Of a stretch of DNA of 64,000 nucleotides, positions 57,876 through 63,288 are shown one piece after another. Below the pieces are notes generated by a model. It saw only the letters and a list, made by a program, of their open reading frames with translations. It ran no database searches and was not told the origin of the DNA. Both the position numbers and the translations under genes were made by a program. The stretch comes from Escherichia coli (GTDB lineage Bacteria; Pseudomonadota; Gammaproteobacteria; Enterobacterales; Enterobacteriaceae), in NCBI RefSeq assembly GCF_016026235.1, contig NZ_CP065613.1, one strand, 5' to 3'. Position 1 is the stretch's first letter, and the number at the start of each line of letters is the position of its first letter.

Positions 57876-60286
57876 TTGCACGTTGGTTCTGGCGCGAATG
57901 GCGTTCGCCGTCGCTATTAATTGTCTGGCTGGCGCTAAGCCTGGCGGTGGCCTGCGTGCTGGCGCTGGGCAATATCAGCGATCGCATGGAGAAGGGCTTA
58001 AGCCAGCAAAGCCGTGAGTTTATGGCGGGCGATCGGGCGCTGCGCAGTTCGCGCGAAGTGCCGCAAGCGTGGCTGGAGGAAGCGCAAAAGCGCGGCCTGA
58101 AAGTCGGCAAGCAGCTGACTTTCGCCACCATGACATTTGCAGGCGACACACCGCAGCTGGCGAACGTTAAAGCGGTGGATGATATCTACCCGATGTATGG
58201 CGATCTGCAAACCAATCCCCCTGGCCTGAAACCGCAGGCGGGCAGCGTATTGCTGGCCCCACGCCTGATGGCACTGCTTAACCTGAAAACGGGCGACACC
58301 ATTGACGTGGGCGATGCCACCTTGCGGATTGCCGGAGAAGTGATTCAGGAACCGGATTCCGGTTTTAACCCCTTCCAGATGGCTCCGCGTCTGATGATGA
58401 ATCTGGCGGATGTCGATAAAACCGGAGCCGTGCAGCCGGGGAGTCGGGTCACCTGGCGCTATAAATTCGGCGGCAGCGAGAACCAGCTCGACAGCTATGA
58501 GAAATGGTTGTTACCTCAGCTTAAACCCGAACAACGCTGGTACGGTCTGGAACAGGACGAAGGCGCGCTGGGGCGATCGATGGAACGCTCGCAACAGTTC
58601 CTGCTGCTTTCGGCGCTTCTGACCTTGCTGCTGGCAGTGGCAGCGGTGGCGGTAGCGATGAATCATTACTGTCGCAGTCGCTACGATCTGGTGGCGATCC
58701 TCAAAACACTGGGGGCAGGGCGAGCGCAACTGCGTAAGCTAATCGTCGGTCAGTGGTTGATGGTGCTGACGCTTTCAGCCGTTACCGGTGGGGCGATAGG
58801 CCTGTTGTTCGAAAACGTGTTGATGGTGCTGCTCAAGCCCGTTCTGCCTGCTGCACTACCGCCAGCCAGCCTCTGGCCGTGGCTGTGGGCGCTTGGCACC
58901 ATGACGGTCATCTCGCTGCTGGTGGGGCTACGACCATACCGCTTGTTGCTGGCAACGCAGCCTTTACGCGTATTACGTAATGATGTGGTAGCGAACGTCT
59001 GGCCGCTGAAGTTTTATCTGCCGATTGTCAGTGTGGTGGTTGTGCTGCTGCTCGCCGGATTAATGGGTGGCAGCATGCTGCTTTGGGCGGTGCTGGCGGG
59101 CGCGGTAGTACTGGCTTTGCTGTGCGGTGTGCTGGGCTGGATGCAGCTGAATGTACTTCGCCGCATGACGCTGAAATCGCTACCTCTGCGCCTGGCGGTT
59201 AGCCGCCTGTTACGTCAGCCGTGGTCAACGTTAAGCCAGCTTTCGGCATTTTCGCTCTCCTTTATGCTGCTGGCGCTGTTGCTGGTATTGCGTGGCGATC
59301 TGCTCGACCGCTGGCAGCAGCAGCTACCGCCAGAAAGCCCGAACTACTTTTTAATTAACATCGCCACAGAACAGGTAGCACCGCTAAAAGCGTTCCTCGC
59401 GGAACATCATATAGTCCCGGAATCGTTTTATCCGGTGGTGCGGGCGAGACTGACGGCGATTAACGGCAAGCCGACAGAAGGCAATGAAGATGAGGCGCTC
59501 AATCGCGAACTCAATCTTACCTGGCAAAATACGCGGCCCGATCATAATCCGATTGTCGCCGGTAACTGGCCGCCAAAAGCCGATGAAGTATCGATGGAAG
59601 AGGGGCTGGCGAAACGCTTAAACGTTGCCCTCGGTGATACCGTGACTTTTATGGGCGATACCCAGGAGTTCCGCGCTAAAGTGACCAGCCTGCGCAAAGT
59701 GGACTGGGAAAGTCTGCGGCCTAATTTCTATTTTATTTTCCCTGAAGGGGCATTAGACGGGCAACCGCAGAGCTGGCTTACCAGTTTCCGCTGGGAGAAT
59801 GGCAACGGCATGTTGACGCAACTCAACCGCCAGTTCCCGACCATTAGCCTGTTAGACATTGGCGCGATTTTAAAACAGGTCGGCCAGGTGCTGGAGCAGG
59901 TAAGTCGGGCGCTGGAGGTGATGGTGGTGCTGGTCACCGCCTGCGGTATGTTGCTGTTGCTGGCACAGGTGCAGGTGGGAATGCGTCAGCGTCATCAGGA
60001 GCTGGTGGTGTGGCGCACACTCGGTGCGGGGAAAAAACTGCTGCGTACCACGTTGTGGTGTGAGTTCGCCATGCTTGGGTTTGTTTCTGGCCTGGTGGCC
60101 GCAATTGGTGCGGAAACGGCACTGGCAGTGTTGCAGGCGAAAGTGTTTGATTTTCCGTGGGAGCCAGACTGGCGATTGTGGATTGTTCTGCCGTGCAGCG
60201 GTGCGCTGCTGCTGTCGCTTTTCGGCGGCTGGCTGGGCGCGAGACTGGTTAAGGGTAAGGCGCTGTTCAGGCAGTTTGCGGGGTGA
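57872..60286 (+). CDS. ybbP: ABC transporter permease YbbP (FtsX-like, duplicated)
   Basis: ORF track 804 aa; overlaps ybbA stop. Confidence 0.92.
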   Translation: MIARWFWREWRSPSLLIVWLALSLAVACVLALGNISDRMEKGLSQQSREFMAGDRALRSSREVPQAWLEEAQKRGLKVGKQLTFATMTFAGDTPQLANVKAVDDIYPMYGDLQTNPPGLKPQAGSVLLAPRLMALLNLKTGDTIDVGDATLRIAGEVIQEPDSGFNPFQMAPRLMMNLADVDKTGAVQPGSRVTWRYKFGGSENQLDSYEKWLLPQLKPEQRWYGLEQDEGALGRSMERSQQFLLLSALLTLLLAVAAVAVAMNHYCRSRYDLVAILKTLGAGRAQLRKLIVGQWLMVLTLSAVTGGAIGLLFENVLMVLLKPVLPAALPPASLWPWLWALGTMTVISLLVGLRPYRLLLATQPLRVLRNDVVANVWPLKFYLPIVSVVVVLLLAGLMGGSMLLWAVLAGAVVLALLCGVLGWMQLNVLRRMTLKSLPLRLAVSRLLRQPWSTLSQLSAFSLSFMLLALLLVLRGDLLDRWQQQLPPESPNYFLINIATEQVAPLKAFLAEHHIVPESFYPVVRARLTAINGKPTEGNEDEALNRELNLTWQNTRPDHNPIVAGNWPPKADEVSMEEGLAKRLNVALGDTVTFMGDTQEFRAKVTSLRKVDWESLRPNFYFIFPEGALDGQPQSWLTSFRWENGNGMLTQLNRQFPTISLLDIGAILKQVGQVLEQVSRALEVMVVLVTACGMLLLLAQVQVGMRQRHQELVVWRTLGAGKKLLRTTLWCEFAMLGFVSGLVAAIGAETALAVLQAKVFDFPWEPDWRLWIVLPCSGALLLSLFGGWLGARLVKGKALFRQFAG

Positions 60287-60302
60287 TGACTGGTGTTAGA
60301 TT

Positions 60303-60602
<300 letters not shown>

Positions 60603-60703
60603 TGAACAGTGTGCATTTTGGCAATAAATCTGAAACCAACTGTCATGTCGGTTTTTTAAAGGCCGAAGGTGGTAAACCTTCGGCCTTAGCTACGTTTCCT
60701 CAG

Positions 60704-60787
60704 TTATTCAATAAACTGACGGATCAGTTCCAGCAGCGCGATTAGCGCCTTAAGCACGATGAGAACTTTATCGAGAAAAGTTTTCAT
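60704..60787 (-). CDS. candidate type I toxin: 27 aa hydrophobic/amphipathic peptide MKTFLDKVLIVLKALIALLELIRQFIE (DinQ/TisB-like)
   Basis: Hand-translated ORF with strong SD AAGGGAG 6 nt upstream of ATG, SD embedded in perfect palindrome CTCCCTTAAGGGAG; central ALIALLELIR segment resembles DinQ as I recall it; not in the ORF track (under 60 aa). Confidence 0.45.
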   Translation of the reverse strand: MKTFLDKVLIVLKALIALLELIRQFIE

Positions 60788-61046
60788 CCGTTGCTCCCTT
60801 AAGGGAGAAAGACAATCACAGCTTACCCTTACGTTGCCTGTAACTATGATTTTCTTCATGTGCTAGATGAGGACTGCCTCTCTCCAAATTAGAGCACCAG
60901 AATCAGCACCACCTGTATCCTGACCAGGACTTAAAAGTACTTTTCCGCACTGCGGTAATCCCTTGAGGCAGTATCACTACTAGCGTCGGGATTGTATCGC
61001 CAACATAGCTGTTTGAATATGTAGGCATCCTGACTTATAATTCACT

Positions 61047-61137
61047 TGCTAGATGAGGACTGTTTCATTTCTGCCCGGAACCACCAAGTCTTGGGCGGAA
61101 AAAATAAAAAAACCGACTGTCATGTCGGTTTTTTTAT
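61047..61137 (+). ncRNA. candidate antitoxin sRNA (about 90 nt), divergent from the toxin ORF; its 5' end carries a 16 nt box identical to 60861-60876 and hence complementary to the minus-strand toxin leader
   Basis: Near-consensus sigma70 promoter TTGAAT (61013-18), 17 nt spacer, TATAAT (61036-41); transcript would start about 61044-61048 and end at hairpin AACCGAC-TGTCAT-GTCGGTT plus 7 T (61111-61137). Confidence 0.45.
61111..61137. terminator. bidirectional Rho-independent terminator (A-tract, hairpin, T-tract) shared by selU (minus) and the candidate sRNA (plus)
   Basis: AAAAAAACCGAC TGTCAT GTCGGTTTTTTT read directly. Confidence 0.75.
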
Positions 61138-61198
61138 ATCTGTATTCTGGTGCAACCATTCTGTTCTCACGACAATCGCCGTTTCAGAATACCGCCCA

Positions 61199-62308
<1,110 letters not shown>

Positions 62309-62361
62309 TCAAATCAGCTTGCGCGCTATTTTACGCGCCAACGCGCAAGGAAACTTGATTT

Positions 62362-63288
62362 TTAACTGCGTGGGTTGCCGAAAATTTCTAAAAATCCGCT
62401 GATTTCCGGCCTGCGCTGGGTAAACAAGGTCACAATATCTTCTACCGCTTTGCCGCTGCCAAATTTGCGCCATGCCAGACTCAATGGCGAAGGAGGGCGC
62501 ATCGTTGGGATTACCCGGCTGACCAGTTGTTGATTATCGATCATTGACTGGCAAAGCGATTTTGGCAAAAAACCAATGCCAACGCCCGCCAGATGGGCGG
62601 CGATTTTCGTTTCCATATCGGGAACAATAATCTCTTTTTGACCCGGCAATCGCCAGGCGACGCGTTTGGTTAAGGTGCGGGCGCTGTCTTCAATATTGAC
62701 CGCCGGAAAGCGCCGCAACTGCGCTTCTGTTAACGGCTCTTCAACGTTCGCCAGCGGATGATCCGCCGCCATGACAAATCGCCATTGCACCGATCCTAAG
62801 GGATCAAGACTAAAGGTATTTGCCAGCGCCTCAGTTCCCGTGACGCCGATAGCCAGCGAAAAACCTTCGTACAATAGCGAGTCCCAGACTCCCATATAGA
62901 TTTGTCGAGAGATGTGAAACTGGGTAAAGGGGTAACGTTCATTCAGCCACGCCAGCAACTGGGCGACGGCCTGGGGGTTGTAGAGCAGGTTGTTGATGAC
63001 AATATTCACCTGGCGTTCCACGCCATCATTCACCTGTTGCAGCTCGCTTGGCATACTTTCCAGCCAGCTCAGCCAGTCTCTGGCCTGGGAAAGTAGATGC
63101 TCGCCAGCCGCTGTCAACGTCACGCTACGAGTCGTGCGGAAAAACAGCGCTACTCCGGTATTCTCTTCCAGAAGTTTAATGCGATAACTGATCGTCGCCG
63201 TGGTTTTACATAATCGTTCTGCCGCTTTTGAAAAACTTCCTGTTTCAGCAACCGCAATGAAAGTCCGCAAGGTTTCTGGATCGAACAT
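62362..63288 (-). CDS. allS: LysR-family activator AllS of the allantoin regulon
   Basis: ORF track 308 aa; N-terminal LysR HTH. Confidence 0.92.

What the first reader, a model, noticed from the sequence alone, without database searches (positions are those of the whole stretch)
60861..61062. 16 nt direct repeat TGCTAGATGAGGACTG that would give RNA-RNA complementarity between divergent transcripts
The two copies (60861-60876 and 61047-61062) are identical over 16 nt and near-identical over 21 nt (TCAnnTGCTAGATGAGGACTG). Copy 2 sits exactly at the predicted 5' end of the sRNA; copy 1 lies in the presumptive 5' leader of the oppositely transcribed small ORF. A direct DNA repeat between divergent transcription units yields antisense complementarity at the RNA level, the signature of trans-acting type I antitoxins. 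Alternative: copy 1 could be the start of a second tandem plus-strand sRNA, since TATGAT at 60845-60850 is a possible -10.
Basis: seen in the sequence. Interest (0 to 1): 0.6.

Follow-up and report, generated by a model that had tools for sequence, protein, structure and literature searches.

The report
Second DinQ/AgrB-type toxin–antitoxin locus

Summary
The repeat is confirmed. TGCTAGATGAGGACTG occurs exactly twice in the window, at 60861-60876 and 61047-61062 (0.01 expected by chance), and extends to 20/22 identity.

The window is E. coli. Between ybbP and mnmH lies a type I toxin-antitoxin module of the DinQ/AgrB (dql) family:
- The 27-aa ORF at 60787..60704 (-) passes NCBIfam toxin_DinQ (40.9 bits, cutoff 30).
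- The sRNA at 61049-61137 (+) passes Rfam AgrB (53.6 bits, gathering 40).
- The whole toxin mRNA aligns with K-12 dinQ mRNA.
- Copy 1 sits at the position of the AgrB-binding site mapped experimentally in dinQ.
- Copy 2 is the sRNA's 5' tail.

Across about 25 related loci the box sequence differs between loci but matches between each sRNA and its own toxin leader. That is covariation supporting functional pairing.

This locus differs from canonical dinQ in several ways:
- It has no LexA box.
- It has one sRNA, not two.
- The two promoters sit back to back.
- Pairing is limited to about 18-23 bp, against 30/31.

The locus is in about 1314 of 5426 complete E. coli genomes, always alongside canonical dinQ. 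About 179 of them carry a 108-bp deletion that removes the toxin start but keeps the sRNA.

The parts
60861..60876 (-). Repeat copy 1. On the minus-strand toxin mRNA it forms the core of the antitoxin-binding site. The full predicted duplex covers 60863-60885: 18 contiguous pairs, one mismatch, then 4 more pairs.
   Evidence: Exact repeat. Lies +76 from the start codon, the same position as the AgrB site in K-12 dinQ and 5 other loci. Duplex predicted.
61047..61062 (+). Repeat copy 2, the 5' tail of the AgrB-like sRNA. The transcribed part starts at about 61048/61049.
61049..61137 (+). AgrB-family small RNA (antitoxin), about 89 nt. It has a 5' pairing tail, a stem-loop at 61070-61099 with the conserved CCACCAA loop, and a terminator hairpin.
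   Evidence: Rfam RF02891 AgrB 53.6 bits against a gathering score of 40, full-length 1-84/84. Fold.
61013..61041 (+). sRNA promoter, TTGAAT-17 nt-TATAAT (10/12 match to consensus).
   Evidence: Positioned like the K-12 agrB promoter relative to the RNA start.
61104..61137 (+). sRNA intrinsic terminator. The 14-bp stem AAAAAACCGAC/GTCGGTTTTTT has the same stem sequence as the K-12 agrA/agrB terminator.
60704..60787 (-). Toxin ORF, 27 aa, MKTFLDKVLIVLKALIALLELIRQFIE (DinQ family). RefSeq names it dinQ.
   Evidence: NCBIfam NF041472 toxin_DinQ 40.9 bits, cutoff 30. PGAP annotation WP_349808740.1.
60791..60810 (-). Shine-Dalgarno hairpin. On the mRNA it reads CUCCC-UUAA-GGGAG. The SD GGGAG corresponds to + strand 60794-60798 and is sequestered by element 3.
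   Evidence: Palindrome I4. Present in the MFE fold of the full-length leader. Aligns with dinQ elements 3:4.
60654..60984 (-). Predicted toxin mRNA, about 331 nt. The +1 is placed at 60984 by alignment with the mapped K-12 dinQ +1.
   Evidence: Pairwise and multiple alignments. The start site was not mapped here.
60965..60984 (-). The mRNA 5' end, GCUAGUAGUGAUACUGCCUC. It is a degenerate third, inverted copy of the box and pairs with the antitoxin-binding site (the S1 'lock' of dinQ).
   Evidence: MFE fold of the +1 leader. Analogous to stem S1 of dinQ in PMC5066626.
60991..61017 (-). Putative toxin promoter. The -10 TACAAT lies at + 60991-60996 and the -35 TTCAAA at + 61012-61017, with a 15-nt spacer. 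The -35 overlaps the sRNA -35 back to back. There is no LexA box.
   Evidence: The -10 aligns with the dinQ -10 TATGAT. LexA scans. Inferred, not mapped.
60659..60687 (-). Toxin mRNA terminator hairpin, GGCCGAAGG...CCUUCGGCC.
   Evidence: Inverted repeat I3. Aligns with the dinQ terminator.
60633..60657 (+). A 25-nt near-copy (24/25) of the sRNA terminator, so that direct repeats flank the whole module at 477-nt spacing.
   Evidence: family D1. Origin not resolved.

Best explanation
The two boxes are the recognition module of a type I toxin-antitoxin pair of the DinQ/AgrB (dql) family, lying between ybbP and mnmH.

The minus strand encodes a toxin mRNA of about 331 nt. It has a 197-nt leader and a 27-aa hydrophobic DinQ-type peptide. 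The plus strand, 64 bp beyond the toxin start site, encodes an AgrB-type sRNA of about 89 nt from a strong sigma-70 promoter.

The sRNA's 5' tail (copy 2) pairs in trans with the leader at copy 1. The duplex has 14 Watson-Crick pairs from the exact repeat, extended by U:G, U:G, U:A and C:G to 18 contiguous pairs, then one mismatch and 4 more pairs.

By analogy with dinQ, the full-length mRNA should be translationally inert. Its own 5' end, a degenerate inverted third copy of the box, pairs with the same site, and the Shine-Dalgarno GGGAG sits in a CUCCC-UUAA-GGGAG hairpin. Removing the 5' end would free leader element 2 (GGAGAGAGGCA) to pair with element 3 (UGUCUUUCUCC) and open the SD. Binding of the sRNA would recapture element 2, re-close the SD hairpin and create an RNase III substrate. 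That would keep the toxin off.

Shown here: the repeat, family membership of both genes, positional homology of the site, and family-wide covariation. Inferred: the transcription starts, processing, translational switching, RNase III cleavage and toxicity.

Unlike dinQ, the toxin promoter has no LexA box, so this copy is probably not SOS-controlled.
For: - The repeat is exact and non-random.
- The toxin matches NCBIfam toxin_DinQ above its cutoff, and RefSeq annotates it as dinQ.
- The sRNA matches Rfam AgrB full-length above the gathering score, with a promoter and terminator.
- The toxin mRNA aligns end to end with K-12 dinQ mRNA and with five plasmid or chromosomal dql mRNAs. Conserved blocks include AAGTCCTGG, GGTGGTGC, ACAGGCA, GTAAG, AAACGGATG and CTGGAACTGATCCG.
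- In 7 loci the sRNA 5' end matches its own leader at +73 to +77 from the start codon, with a different sequence in each locus.
- In 19 more loci from 100,044 species genomes, 17 have an adjacent AgrB hit. The neighbouring sRNA best matches its own target among 15 distinct targets in nearly all of them.
- Duplex energies are strongest on the diagonal. The window sRNA with its own leader gives -39.3 kcal/mol, against -20.8 +/- 2.7 for shuffled sRNA tails.
- In Escherichia sp. E1V33, which carries both paralogues, cognate pairs give -39.3 and -56.1 against -24.7 and -29.7 for crossed pairs.
- The MFE fold of the full-length leader shows the 5'-end lock on the target site and the closed SD hairpin.
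- The mechanism is established experimentally for dinQ/agrB (PMC3567139 and PMC5066626) and for plasmid dqlB/agrB (PMC12365149).
Against: - There are no expression data. Both start sites, the processing event and toxicity are inferred.
- The toxin promoter is weak by consensus. Its 15-nt spacer was not picked up by the promoter scan.
- Complementarity is much shorter than in other family members: 21/34 identical positions against 27-31/34. The part of the AgrB site that lies in the sRNA stem-loop arm has diverged on both partners.
- The thermodynamic test of SD opening and closing did not reproduce the known K-12 behaviour, so it cannot be used for this locus.
- About 179 genomes have lost the toxin start by deletion, so the toxin is dispensable.
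- Within E. coli the boxes are invariant in every copy inspected. Covariation is therefore seen only between paralogous or orthologous loci, not within this locus.
Confidence: 0.85

Rival explanations
1. The boxes are only a relic of common descent. On this view the sRNA gene arose by duplicating the toxin leader region, and the locus is now a decaying, non-functional remnant whose repeat does no work.
For: Complementarity has eroded to 21/34, with the 3' two-thirds of the ancestral site diverged on both partners. A 108-bp deletion allele lacking the toxin start is carried by about 179 genomes. A further decayed sRNA remnant exists next to mnmH in strain BS-01. The toxin promoter is suboptimal.
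Against: The intact module is >=99% identical in 1133 of 1135 genomes. It has 1 mismatch in 600 nt against Escherichia sp. E1V33, whose flanking genes differ by about 4%. The ORF, SD, SD hairpin, 5' lock, promoter and terminators are all intact. The 18-bp contiguous duplex is comparable with other working type I pairs, such as the 18 nt of OrzO/zorO as I recall it (own knowledge). The retained identical stretch is exactly the hypervariable specificity segment of the family.
Confidence: 0.07
2. Copy 1 is the start of a second, tandem plus-strand sRNA (an AgrA-like paralogue) driven by TATGAT at 60845-60850. Both boxes would then be transcribed in the same sense.
For: K-12 and several relatives do carry two or three tandem AgrA/AgrB genes. 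TATGAT lies 10 nt upstream of copy 1.
Against: There is no AgrB-like match at copy 1 even at E<=10. No promoter passes the scan there; my reading of the -35 region is CTTACC, 3/6. No plus-strand terminator lies between 60877 and the sRNA promoter. The sequence downstream of copy 1 is the reverse complement of the conserved dinQ-type leader (SL2 and the GGTGGTGC block), not an AgrB body. In every relative a box copy lies at this same distance from the toxin start codon, inside the leader.
Confidence: 0.03
3. The sRNA's main job is not, or not only, its neighbouring toxin. It could cross-regulate the canonical SOS-induced dinQ mRNA, or other mRNAs, through its short 5' seed. That would explain why it is kept after the toxin is deleted.
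For: The window sRNA is predicted to pair fairly well with some canonical dinQ leaders: -33.9 kcal/mol (K-12 type) and -36.7 (L007 type) against -39.3 for its own leader. The sRNA and its promoter are intact in the toxin-deleted allele. Canonical dinQ is present in 5422 of 5426 genomes, so both always co-occur.
Against: In the one genome where both loci were compared directly, crossed pairs are weak: -24.7 and -29.7, or -15.9 and -16.7 for the 20-nt tails. All five deletion alleles inspected share the same junction and SNPs, so retention may simply reflect one recent event. duplexfold ignores accessibility.
Confidence: 0.05

Closest known systems
dinQ-agrA/agrB of E. coli K-12 (arsR-gor intergenic region; Weel-Sneve 2013 PMC3567139; Kristiansen 2016 PMC5066626)
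   Same: The toxin peptide is of the same family (shared ALIALLELIR core; NCBIfam hit). The ~331-nt mRNA has a homologous leader: 5' lock, SL2 and SL4 blocks, and an SD hairpin. The sRNA is of the AgrB family, divergently encoded and non-overlapping. The sRNA 5' tail is complementary to the leader about 76 nt upstream of the start codon.
   Different: The chromosomal site differs (ybbP-mnmH). No LexA operator is recognisable, whereas K-12 has one at core 7/8 and 15/20 and this locus reaches at best 6/8 and 11/20, lacking the right CAG. There is one sRNA instead of two, and the promoters are back to back with overlapping -35 hexamers. Pairing is 18 (+4) bp including wobbles, against 30/31. The box sequence differs at 4 of 16 positions, changed on both partners. 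The peptide starts with ATG, has 3 extra N-terminal residues and a shorter C-terminus.
dql (dinQ-like) genes, dqlA/dqlB, of Enterobacteriaceae chromosomes and plasmids (Kristiansen 2016), with asRNAs predicted in T1TAdb (PMC8594479); DqlB/agrB of pOXA-48 validated as an addiction module (PMC12365149)
   Same: This is the class the locus most naturally belongs to: a dinQ homologue outside arsR-gor, co-resident with dinQ, with sigma-70 promoters, terminators and the four leader elements. The plasmid members show toxicity and rescue by agrB through a 35-nt leader complementarity.
   Different: The peptide scores as DinQ (40.9 bits), not DqlB (24.5 bits, below the cutoff of 35), and lacks the 7-aa DqlB insertion. 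The locus is chromosomal and not on a mobile element as far as the window shows. I could not check whether this exact locus is among the 14 dql genes of the 2016 paper, because its supplement is not held. No held paper contains the box or the peptide sequence.
zorO-orzO (E. coli O157:H7) and tisB-istR-1 type I systems
   Same: The architecture is the same: a divergent, non-overlapping sRNA, a long toxin 5' UTR that must be processed to be translated, and a short complementarity of about 18-21 nt within the UTR.
   Different: These are not homologous by these tests. Rfam OrzO-P reaches only 24 bits against a gathering score of 60, and that hit is on the terminator. One paper notes partial similarity between the zor and plasmid dinQ 5' UTRs (PMC11264685).

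Membership tests
DinQ/AgrB (dql) type I toxin-antitoxin family | A small hydrophobic toxin peptide that matches the DinQ profile | tested here: met
   NF041472 toxin_DinQ 40.9 bits, cutoff 30; K-12 DinQ scores 54 bits as a control.
DinQ/AgrB (dql) type I toxin-antitoxin family | An sRNA that matches the AgrB covariance model, with two hairpins and a CCACCAA loop | tested here: met
   RF02891 53.6 bits against a gathering score of 40, model positions 1-84/84, at 61049-61137 (+).
DinQ/AgrB (dql) type I toxin-antitoxin family | A toxin mRNA leader homologous to the dinQ leader, with conserved blocks, an SD hairpin and four mutually exclusive elements | tested here: met
   Alignments. The 5' lock and SD hairpin appear in the MFE fold. 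An 11-bp pairing between elements 2 and 3 can be drawn directly from the sequence.
DinQ/AgrB (dql) type I toxin-antitoxin family | The sRNA is divergent, does not overlap the mRNA, lies within 500 nt, and has a 5' end complementary (>=15 nt) to the leader upstream of the RBS | tested here: met
   There are 64 bp between the predicted starts. The repeat is 16 nt exact, giving an 18-bp contiguous duplex at +76 from the start codon.
DinQ/AgrB (dql) type I toxin-antitoxin family | The peptide is toxic, and toxicity is neutralised by the sRNA through base pairing, translational block and RNase III cleavage | not testable with these tools
   Known for dinQ/agrB and pOXA-48 dqlB/agrB only.
DinQ/AgrB (dql) type I toxin-antitoxin family | The primary transcript is inert and is activated by 5' processing (+44 in dinQ) | tested here: inconclusive
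   The partition-function SD accessibility moves in the expected direction for this locus (0.02 full-length, 0.17 truncated, 0.01 with sRNA). The K-12 positive control did not reproduce the published behaviour.
dinQ proper (SOS / LexA-regulated orthologue in arsR-gor) | A LexA operator over the toxin promoter (damage inducibility) | tested here: not met
   No CTGT-N8-ACAG with <=1 mismatch occurs in 60600-61200. The best 20-mer scores core 6/8 and 11/20, against 7/8 and 15/20 for K-12.
dinQ proper (SOS / LexA-regulated orthologue in arsR-gor) | [quoted passage not shown] | tested here: not met
   The locus lies between ybbP and mnmH with a single sRNA. Canonical dinQ exists separately in 5422 of 5426 genomes.
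DqlB subfamily | The peptide matches the DqlB profile (31 aa, with an internal insertion) | tested here: not met
   NF041473 DinQ_rel 24.5 bits, below the cutoff of 35. The alignment shows the insertion is absent.

The most novel reading that the evidence does not exclude
This paralogue may be a 'seed-only', SOS-independent derivative of DinQ/AgrB. Its sRNA would recognise targets through an 18-nt single-stranded 5' tail only and would have a role beyond its neighbouring toxin. That role could be one-way cross-repression of some alleles of the canonical SOS toxin mRNA dinQ, or regulation of unrelated mRNAs. Such a role would explain why the sRNA gene survives intact in the ~179 genomes where the toxin start has been deleted, and why the module is about 25 times more conserved than its flanking genes between E. 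coli and Escherichia sp. E1V33.
Probability: 0.12. Interest if true: 0.5.

Novelty: new member of a known kind. Interest (0 to 1): 0.25.

Why it matters
The locus adds a second chromosomal DinQ/AgrB-type module, present in about a quarter of complete E. coli genomes, to the repertoire of type I toxin-antitoxin systems. RefSeq calls its toxin 'damage-inducible DinQ' although it has no LexA box, and does not annotate its sRNA at all, so the current annotation is misleading and incomplete. Comparing the two co-resident paralogues shows how specificity is encoded in the family: a hypervariable 5' segment of about 14-18 nt changes in step on the sRNA and the leader. Natural alleles (intact, toxin-deleted, decayed sRNA) could serve for studying the birth, insulation and decay of type I systems. 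It does not reveal a new mechanism.

Tried and rejected
1. Thermodynamic test of the translational switch. I computed partition-function SD accessibility for the full-length, truncated and sRNA-bound leader. The K-12 positive control gave 0.44, 0.31 and 0.46 instead of closed, open, closed. Cofolding also closes the SD with a non-cognate sRNA. I therefore did not use this as evidence.

2. Full-length duplexfold of the sRNA against the mRNA. It produced unrealistic 80-nt duplexes. I replaced it with 30-nt and 20-nt 5' tails and a shuffle control.

3. LexA-box search. Nothing convincing was found.

4. A second sRNA at copy 1. Rejected; see the rival explanations.

5. Covariation within E. coli orthologues of this locus. 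The boxes are invariant in all copies inspected and the copy-1 segment is >=99% identical in 1133 of 1135 genomes, so no test was possible.

6. The fixed-register scoring mis-registered the window-type target by one base and gave a meaningless 4/34. The correct own-target figure is 21/34 identical plus wobbles.

7. Literature. No held paper contains the box or peptide sequence. The supplement of Kristiansen 2016 that lists the dql loci is not held, so I could not establish whether this exact locus has been listed before.

Full report
**1. Observation.** The 16-mer TGCTAGATGAGGACTG occurs exactly twice in the 64-kb window, at 60861-60876 and 61047-61062, both on the + strand. No further sites appear even with two mismatches allowed. 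Dinucleotide-preserving shuffles give 0.01 matches on average, and none of 100 reach two. The repeat finder extends the pair to 22 nt at 20/22 identity, at 60855-60876 and 61041-61062.

**2. Surroundings.** The window is E. coli. ybbP ends at 60286 and is followed by REP/BIME elements. mnmH occupies 62293..61199 on the minus strand. Two small genes lie between them.

- On the plus strand there is a near-consensus promoter, TTGAAT-17-TATAAT at 61013-41, and a strong terminator at 61104-37. They bracket an RNA of about 89 nt. This RNA matches Rfam AgrB (RF02891) over the full model at 53.6 bits, above the gathering score of 40, starting at 61049.
- On the minus strand, the ORF at 60787..60704 encodes MKTFLDKVLIVLKALIALLELIRQFIE. 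It scores 40.9 bits on NCBIfam toxin_DinQ, above the cutoff of 30. RefSeq genomes annotate it as 'damage-inducible type I toxin DinQ'. The sRNA is not annotated in those records.

**3. Homology of the whole unit.**

- The minus strand from about 60984 to 60654 aligns end to end with the 331-nt K-12 dinQ mRNA. It also aligns with five further dinQ or dqlB mRNAs from chromosomes and IncX/IncI plasmids.
- The -10 TACAAT aligns with the dinQ -10 TATGAT, and the G at 60984 aligns with the mapped dinQ +1.
- Copy 1 of the box lies 76 nt upstream of the start codon. In K-12 and five other loci the sRNA-complementary segment lies at +73 to +77. In K-12 it is the experimentally defined AgrB site, G88-A119 (PMC5066626).
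- Copy 2 is the sRNA's 5' tail. Its first one or two bases fall just upstream of the inferred start.

**4. Predicted pairing.**

- sRNA nt 1-18 (CUAGAUGAGGACUGUUUC) pair contiguously with the mRNA (GAGAGGCAGUCCUCAUCUAG). Fourteen pairs are Watson-Crick pairs from the exact repeat. U:G, U:G, U:A and C:G follow, then one mismatch and four more pairs.
- For the 30-nt tail, duplexfold gives -39.3 kcal/mol, against -20.8 +/- 2.7 (minimum -31.9) for 500 shuffled tails.
- This is much shorter than in relatives: 21/34 identical positions here, against 27-31/34. In the other loci the complementarity continues into the 5' arm of the sRNA's first stem-loop (CTCACTCCGGCCAGAGC). In this locus that part has diverged on both partners. 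Pairing is therefore confined to the single-stranded tail.

**5. Covariation across the family.**

- A pattern built from conserved leader blocks found 19 loci among one-genome-per-species contigs. They come from Escherichia, Citrobacter, Serratia, Kosakonia and Pantoea, plus some contigs whose records are titled Lachnospiraceae or Chryseobacterium. Seventeen have an AgrB hit next to the toxin.
- The box is hypervariable between loci. Examples are TTAGATAAGAACTC in K-12, TTAGATGTGGACTG in Serratia oryzae, TTGGTTGTTGAGAG in Citrobacter amalonaticus, TTAGTTAAAGACAG, TTAGGTGTAGAGTG, and CTAGATGAGGACTG here. Within each locus the sRNA and the leader carry the same version.
- Among 15 distinct targets, a neighbouring sRNA best matches its own target in nearly every locus. 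The fixed register is off by one for the window type, so one search gives the correct figures for it.
- The energy matrix is strongest on the diagonal.
- Relative to K-12, four of the 16 positions differ, and all four are changed in both copies. This is the best evidence available here that the repeat is a functional specificity determinant and not a chance or purely historical repeat.

**6. Mechanism, by analogy and marked as inferred.** For dinQ, the primary transcript is inert. Its 5' end pairs with the AgrB site (stem S1) and the SD is in a hairpin (elements 3:4). Removing 43 nt lets element 2 pair with element 3 and opens the SD. AgrB binds across element 2, re-closes the SD and triggers RNase III cleavage.

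All the pieces are present in this locus:

- The mRNA 5' end GCUAGUAGUGAUACUGCCUC is a degenerate inverted third copy of the box. In the MFE fold it pairs with the target site.
- The SD GGGAG is in a perfect CUCCC-UUAA-GGGAG hairpin.
- GGAGAGAGGCA (element 2, overlapping the sRNA site) can form 11 pairs with UGUCUUUCUCC (element 3). This can be read directly from the sequence.

A partition-function test of the switch was not usable, because the K-12 control failed.

**7. Differences from canonical dinQ.**

- No LexA box. No CTGT-N8-ACAG with <=1 mismatch occurs in the locus. The best 20-mer scores 6/8 core and 11/20, against 7/8 and 15/20 for the K-12 operator. 'Damage-inducible' is thus probably a misnomer for this copy.
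- One sRNA, not agrA plus agrB.
- The -35 hexamers of the two divergent promoters overlap (TTGAAT at 61013-18 on +, TTCAAA at 61017-12 on -).
- The toxin promoter has a 15-nt spacer and was not called by the scan.
- The peptide has three extra N-terminal residues and a shorter C-terminus.

**8. Distribution.**

- The locus is in 1314-1332 of 5426 complete E. coli genomes, always chromosomal.
- Canonical dinQ is in 5422 of 5426 genomes, so this is always a second paralogue.
- The copy-1 segment is intact in 1135 genomes, and >=99% identical in 1133 of them.
- The remaining ~179 carry a 108-bp deletion of 60765-60872, between GATGAGAAC and GATGAGGAC. It removes the toxin's first codons, the SD, the SD hairpin and most of copy 1, but keeps the sRNA gene. 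All five such alleles inspected share the junction and linked SNPs, which is consistent with a single event.
- Outside E. coli, the window type was found only in Escherichia sp. E1V33. There the module has 1 mismatch in 600 nt, while the flanking ybbP and mnmH differ by about 4%. That genome also carries canonical dinQ. Cognate duplexes (-39.3, -56.1) clearly beat crossed ones (-24.7, -29.7), so the two systems look insulated there. Against K-12-type or L007-type dinQ leaders, the window sRNA is predicted to pair less selectively (-33.9, -36.7).

**9. Rivals.**

- A second tandem sRNA at copy 1 is rejected: there is no CM hit, no promoter and no terminator, and the downstream sequence is antisense leader.
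- A purely vestigial repeat is unlikely, given the intact signals and extreme conservation. It cannot be excluded without expression data.
- A wider role for the sRNA is possible but unsupported.

**10. Relation to the literature.** dinQ/agrAB was described in 2013 (PMC3567139). The dql family and its shared leader architecture were described in 2016 (PMC5066626), which notes that some strains carry dql genes together with dinQ. T1TAdb predicted the asRNAs (PMC8594479). Plasmid DqlB/agrB was validated in 2025 (PMC12365149). No held paper contains this box or this peptide, and the 2016 supplement is not held. I therefore cannot say whether this precise locus has been listed.

**Verdict.** The locus is a new, or at least uncharacterised, member of a known kind, and of low-moderate interest.

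Noticed in passing
window 60765-60872 (alleles L009, L010, L034, L035, L036): About 179 of roughly 1314 carrier genomes have a 108-bp deletion between the microhomologies GATGAGAAC (in the ORF) and GATGAGGAC (in box copy 1). It removes the toxin start, the SD and most of the target site, and leaves an intact 'orphan' sRNA gene. All five alleles inspected share the junction and linked SNPs (61045 C>T, 61259 C>A). In some of these genomes PGAP still calls a 25-aa 'dinQ'.
   Followed up: yes
window 60633-60657 and 61110-61134: A 25-nt direct repeat (24/25), AAACC[A/G]ACTGTCATGTCGGTTTTTT, flanks the whole toxin-antitoxin module at 477-nt spacing. The right copy is the sRNA terminator. The left copy may be a remnant of another AgrB-type gene, or a scar of how the module was inserted or duplicated. 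The stem AAAAAACCGAC/GTCGGTTTTTT is also the K-12 agrA/agrB terminator stem.
   Followed up: partly
L024 (Escherichia sp. E1V33) versus window 59800-62400: The module (60600-61200) has 1 mismatch and 1 indel, whereas the flanking ybbP and mnmH sequence differs by about 4% (79 mismatches in 2397 nt overall). This suggests strong constraint or recent transfer or recombination of the module.
   Followed up: partly
L011 (E. coli BS-01, NZ_CP172816.1), next to mnmH: In a strain with an Rhs-type (DUF6531) pseudogene at this site, only a decayed remnant of the sRNA gene remains. The -35 region and the stem-loop are kept, a 24-nt insertion sits in the box, and the terminator is degenerate. There is no toxin.
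   Followed up: partly
window 60704-60859 (-); L014: An in-frame upstream ATG gives a 51-aa ORF. Some RefSeq records annotate 'dinQ' with this long form. Homology, the SD GGGAG and the family alignment support the 27-aa start at 60787. Many genomes also have a 1-nt deletion at 61018, in the shared -35 region, which turns the sRNA -35 into TTGAAA with a 16-nt spacer.
   Followed up: partly
L005 (IncI1 plasmid p1108-emrB) 1162-1249 and 1408-1495; L023 (Citrobacter amalonaticus): Some loci carry two or three tandem AgrB-type sRNAs, of which only one matches the adjacent toxin leader. The second sRNA of L005 matches the leader of a different dqlB (L008 type, -51.3 kcal/mol). This hints at cross-immunity between plasmid-borne systems.
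   Followed up: no
L007, L015, L019, L021, L022 (E. coli and other Escherichia, arsR-gor or arsC locus): In several genomes the canonical dinQ leader carries the box variant TTAGATGACGACTAT, which matches the 'AgrA-type' sRNA and not the K-12 AgrB type. L007 has a single sRNA of that type. Which of agrA or agrB is the working antitoxin may therefore differ between lineages.
   Followed up: no
window 60300-60610: There are three tandem REP/BIME units after ybbP. They hit Rfam naRNA4 (79 and 77 bits) and ES036, which is ordinary for an E. coli intergenic region. Escherichia sp. E1V33 has about 200 nt less of it.
   Followed up: no
L016, L020, L028, L032 (records titled uncultured bacterium, Lachnospiraceae MAGs, Chryseobacterium sp.): Near-canonical dinQ/agrB or dql loci turn up on contigs assigned to non-enterobacterial genomes. 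This most likely reflects contamination or mis-binning of enterobacterial or plasmid contigs.
   Followed up: no
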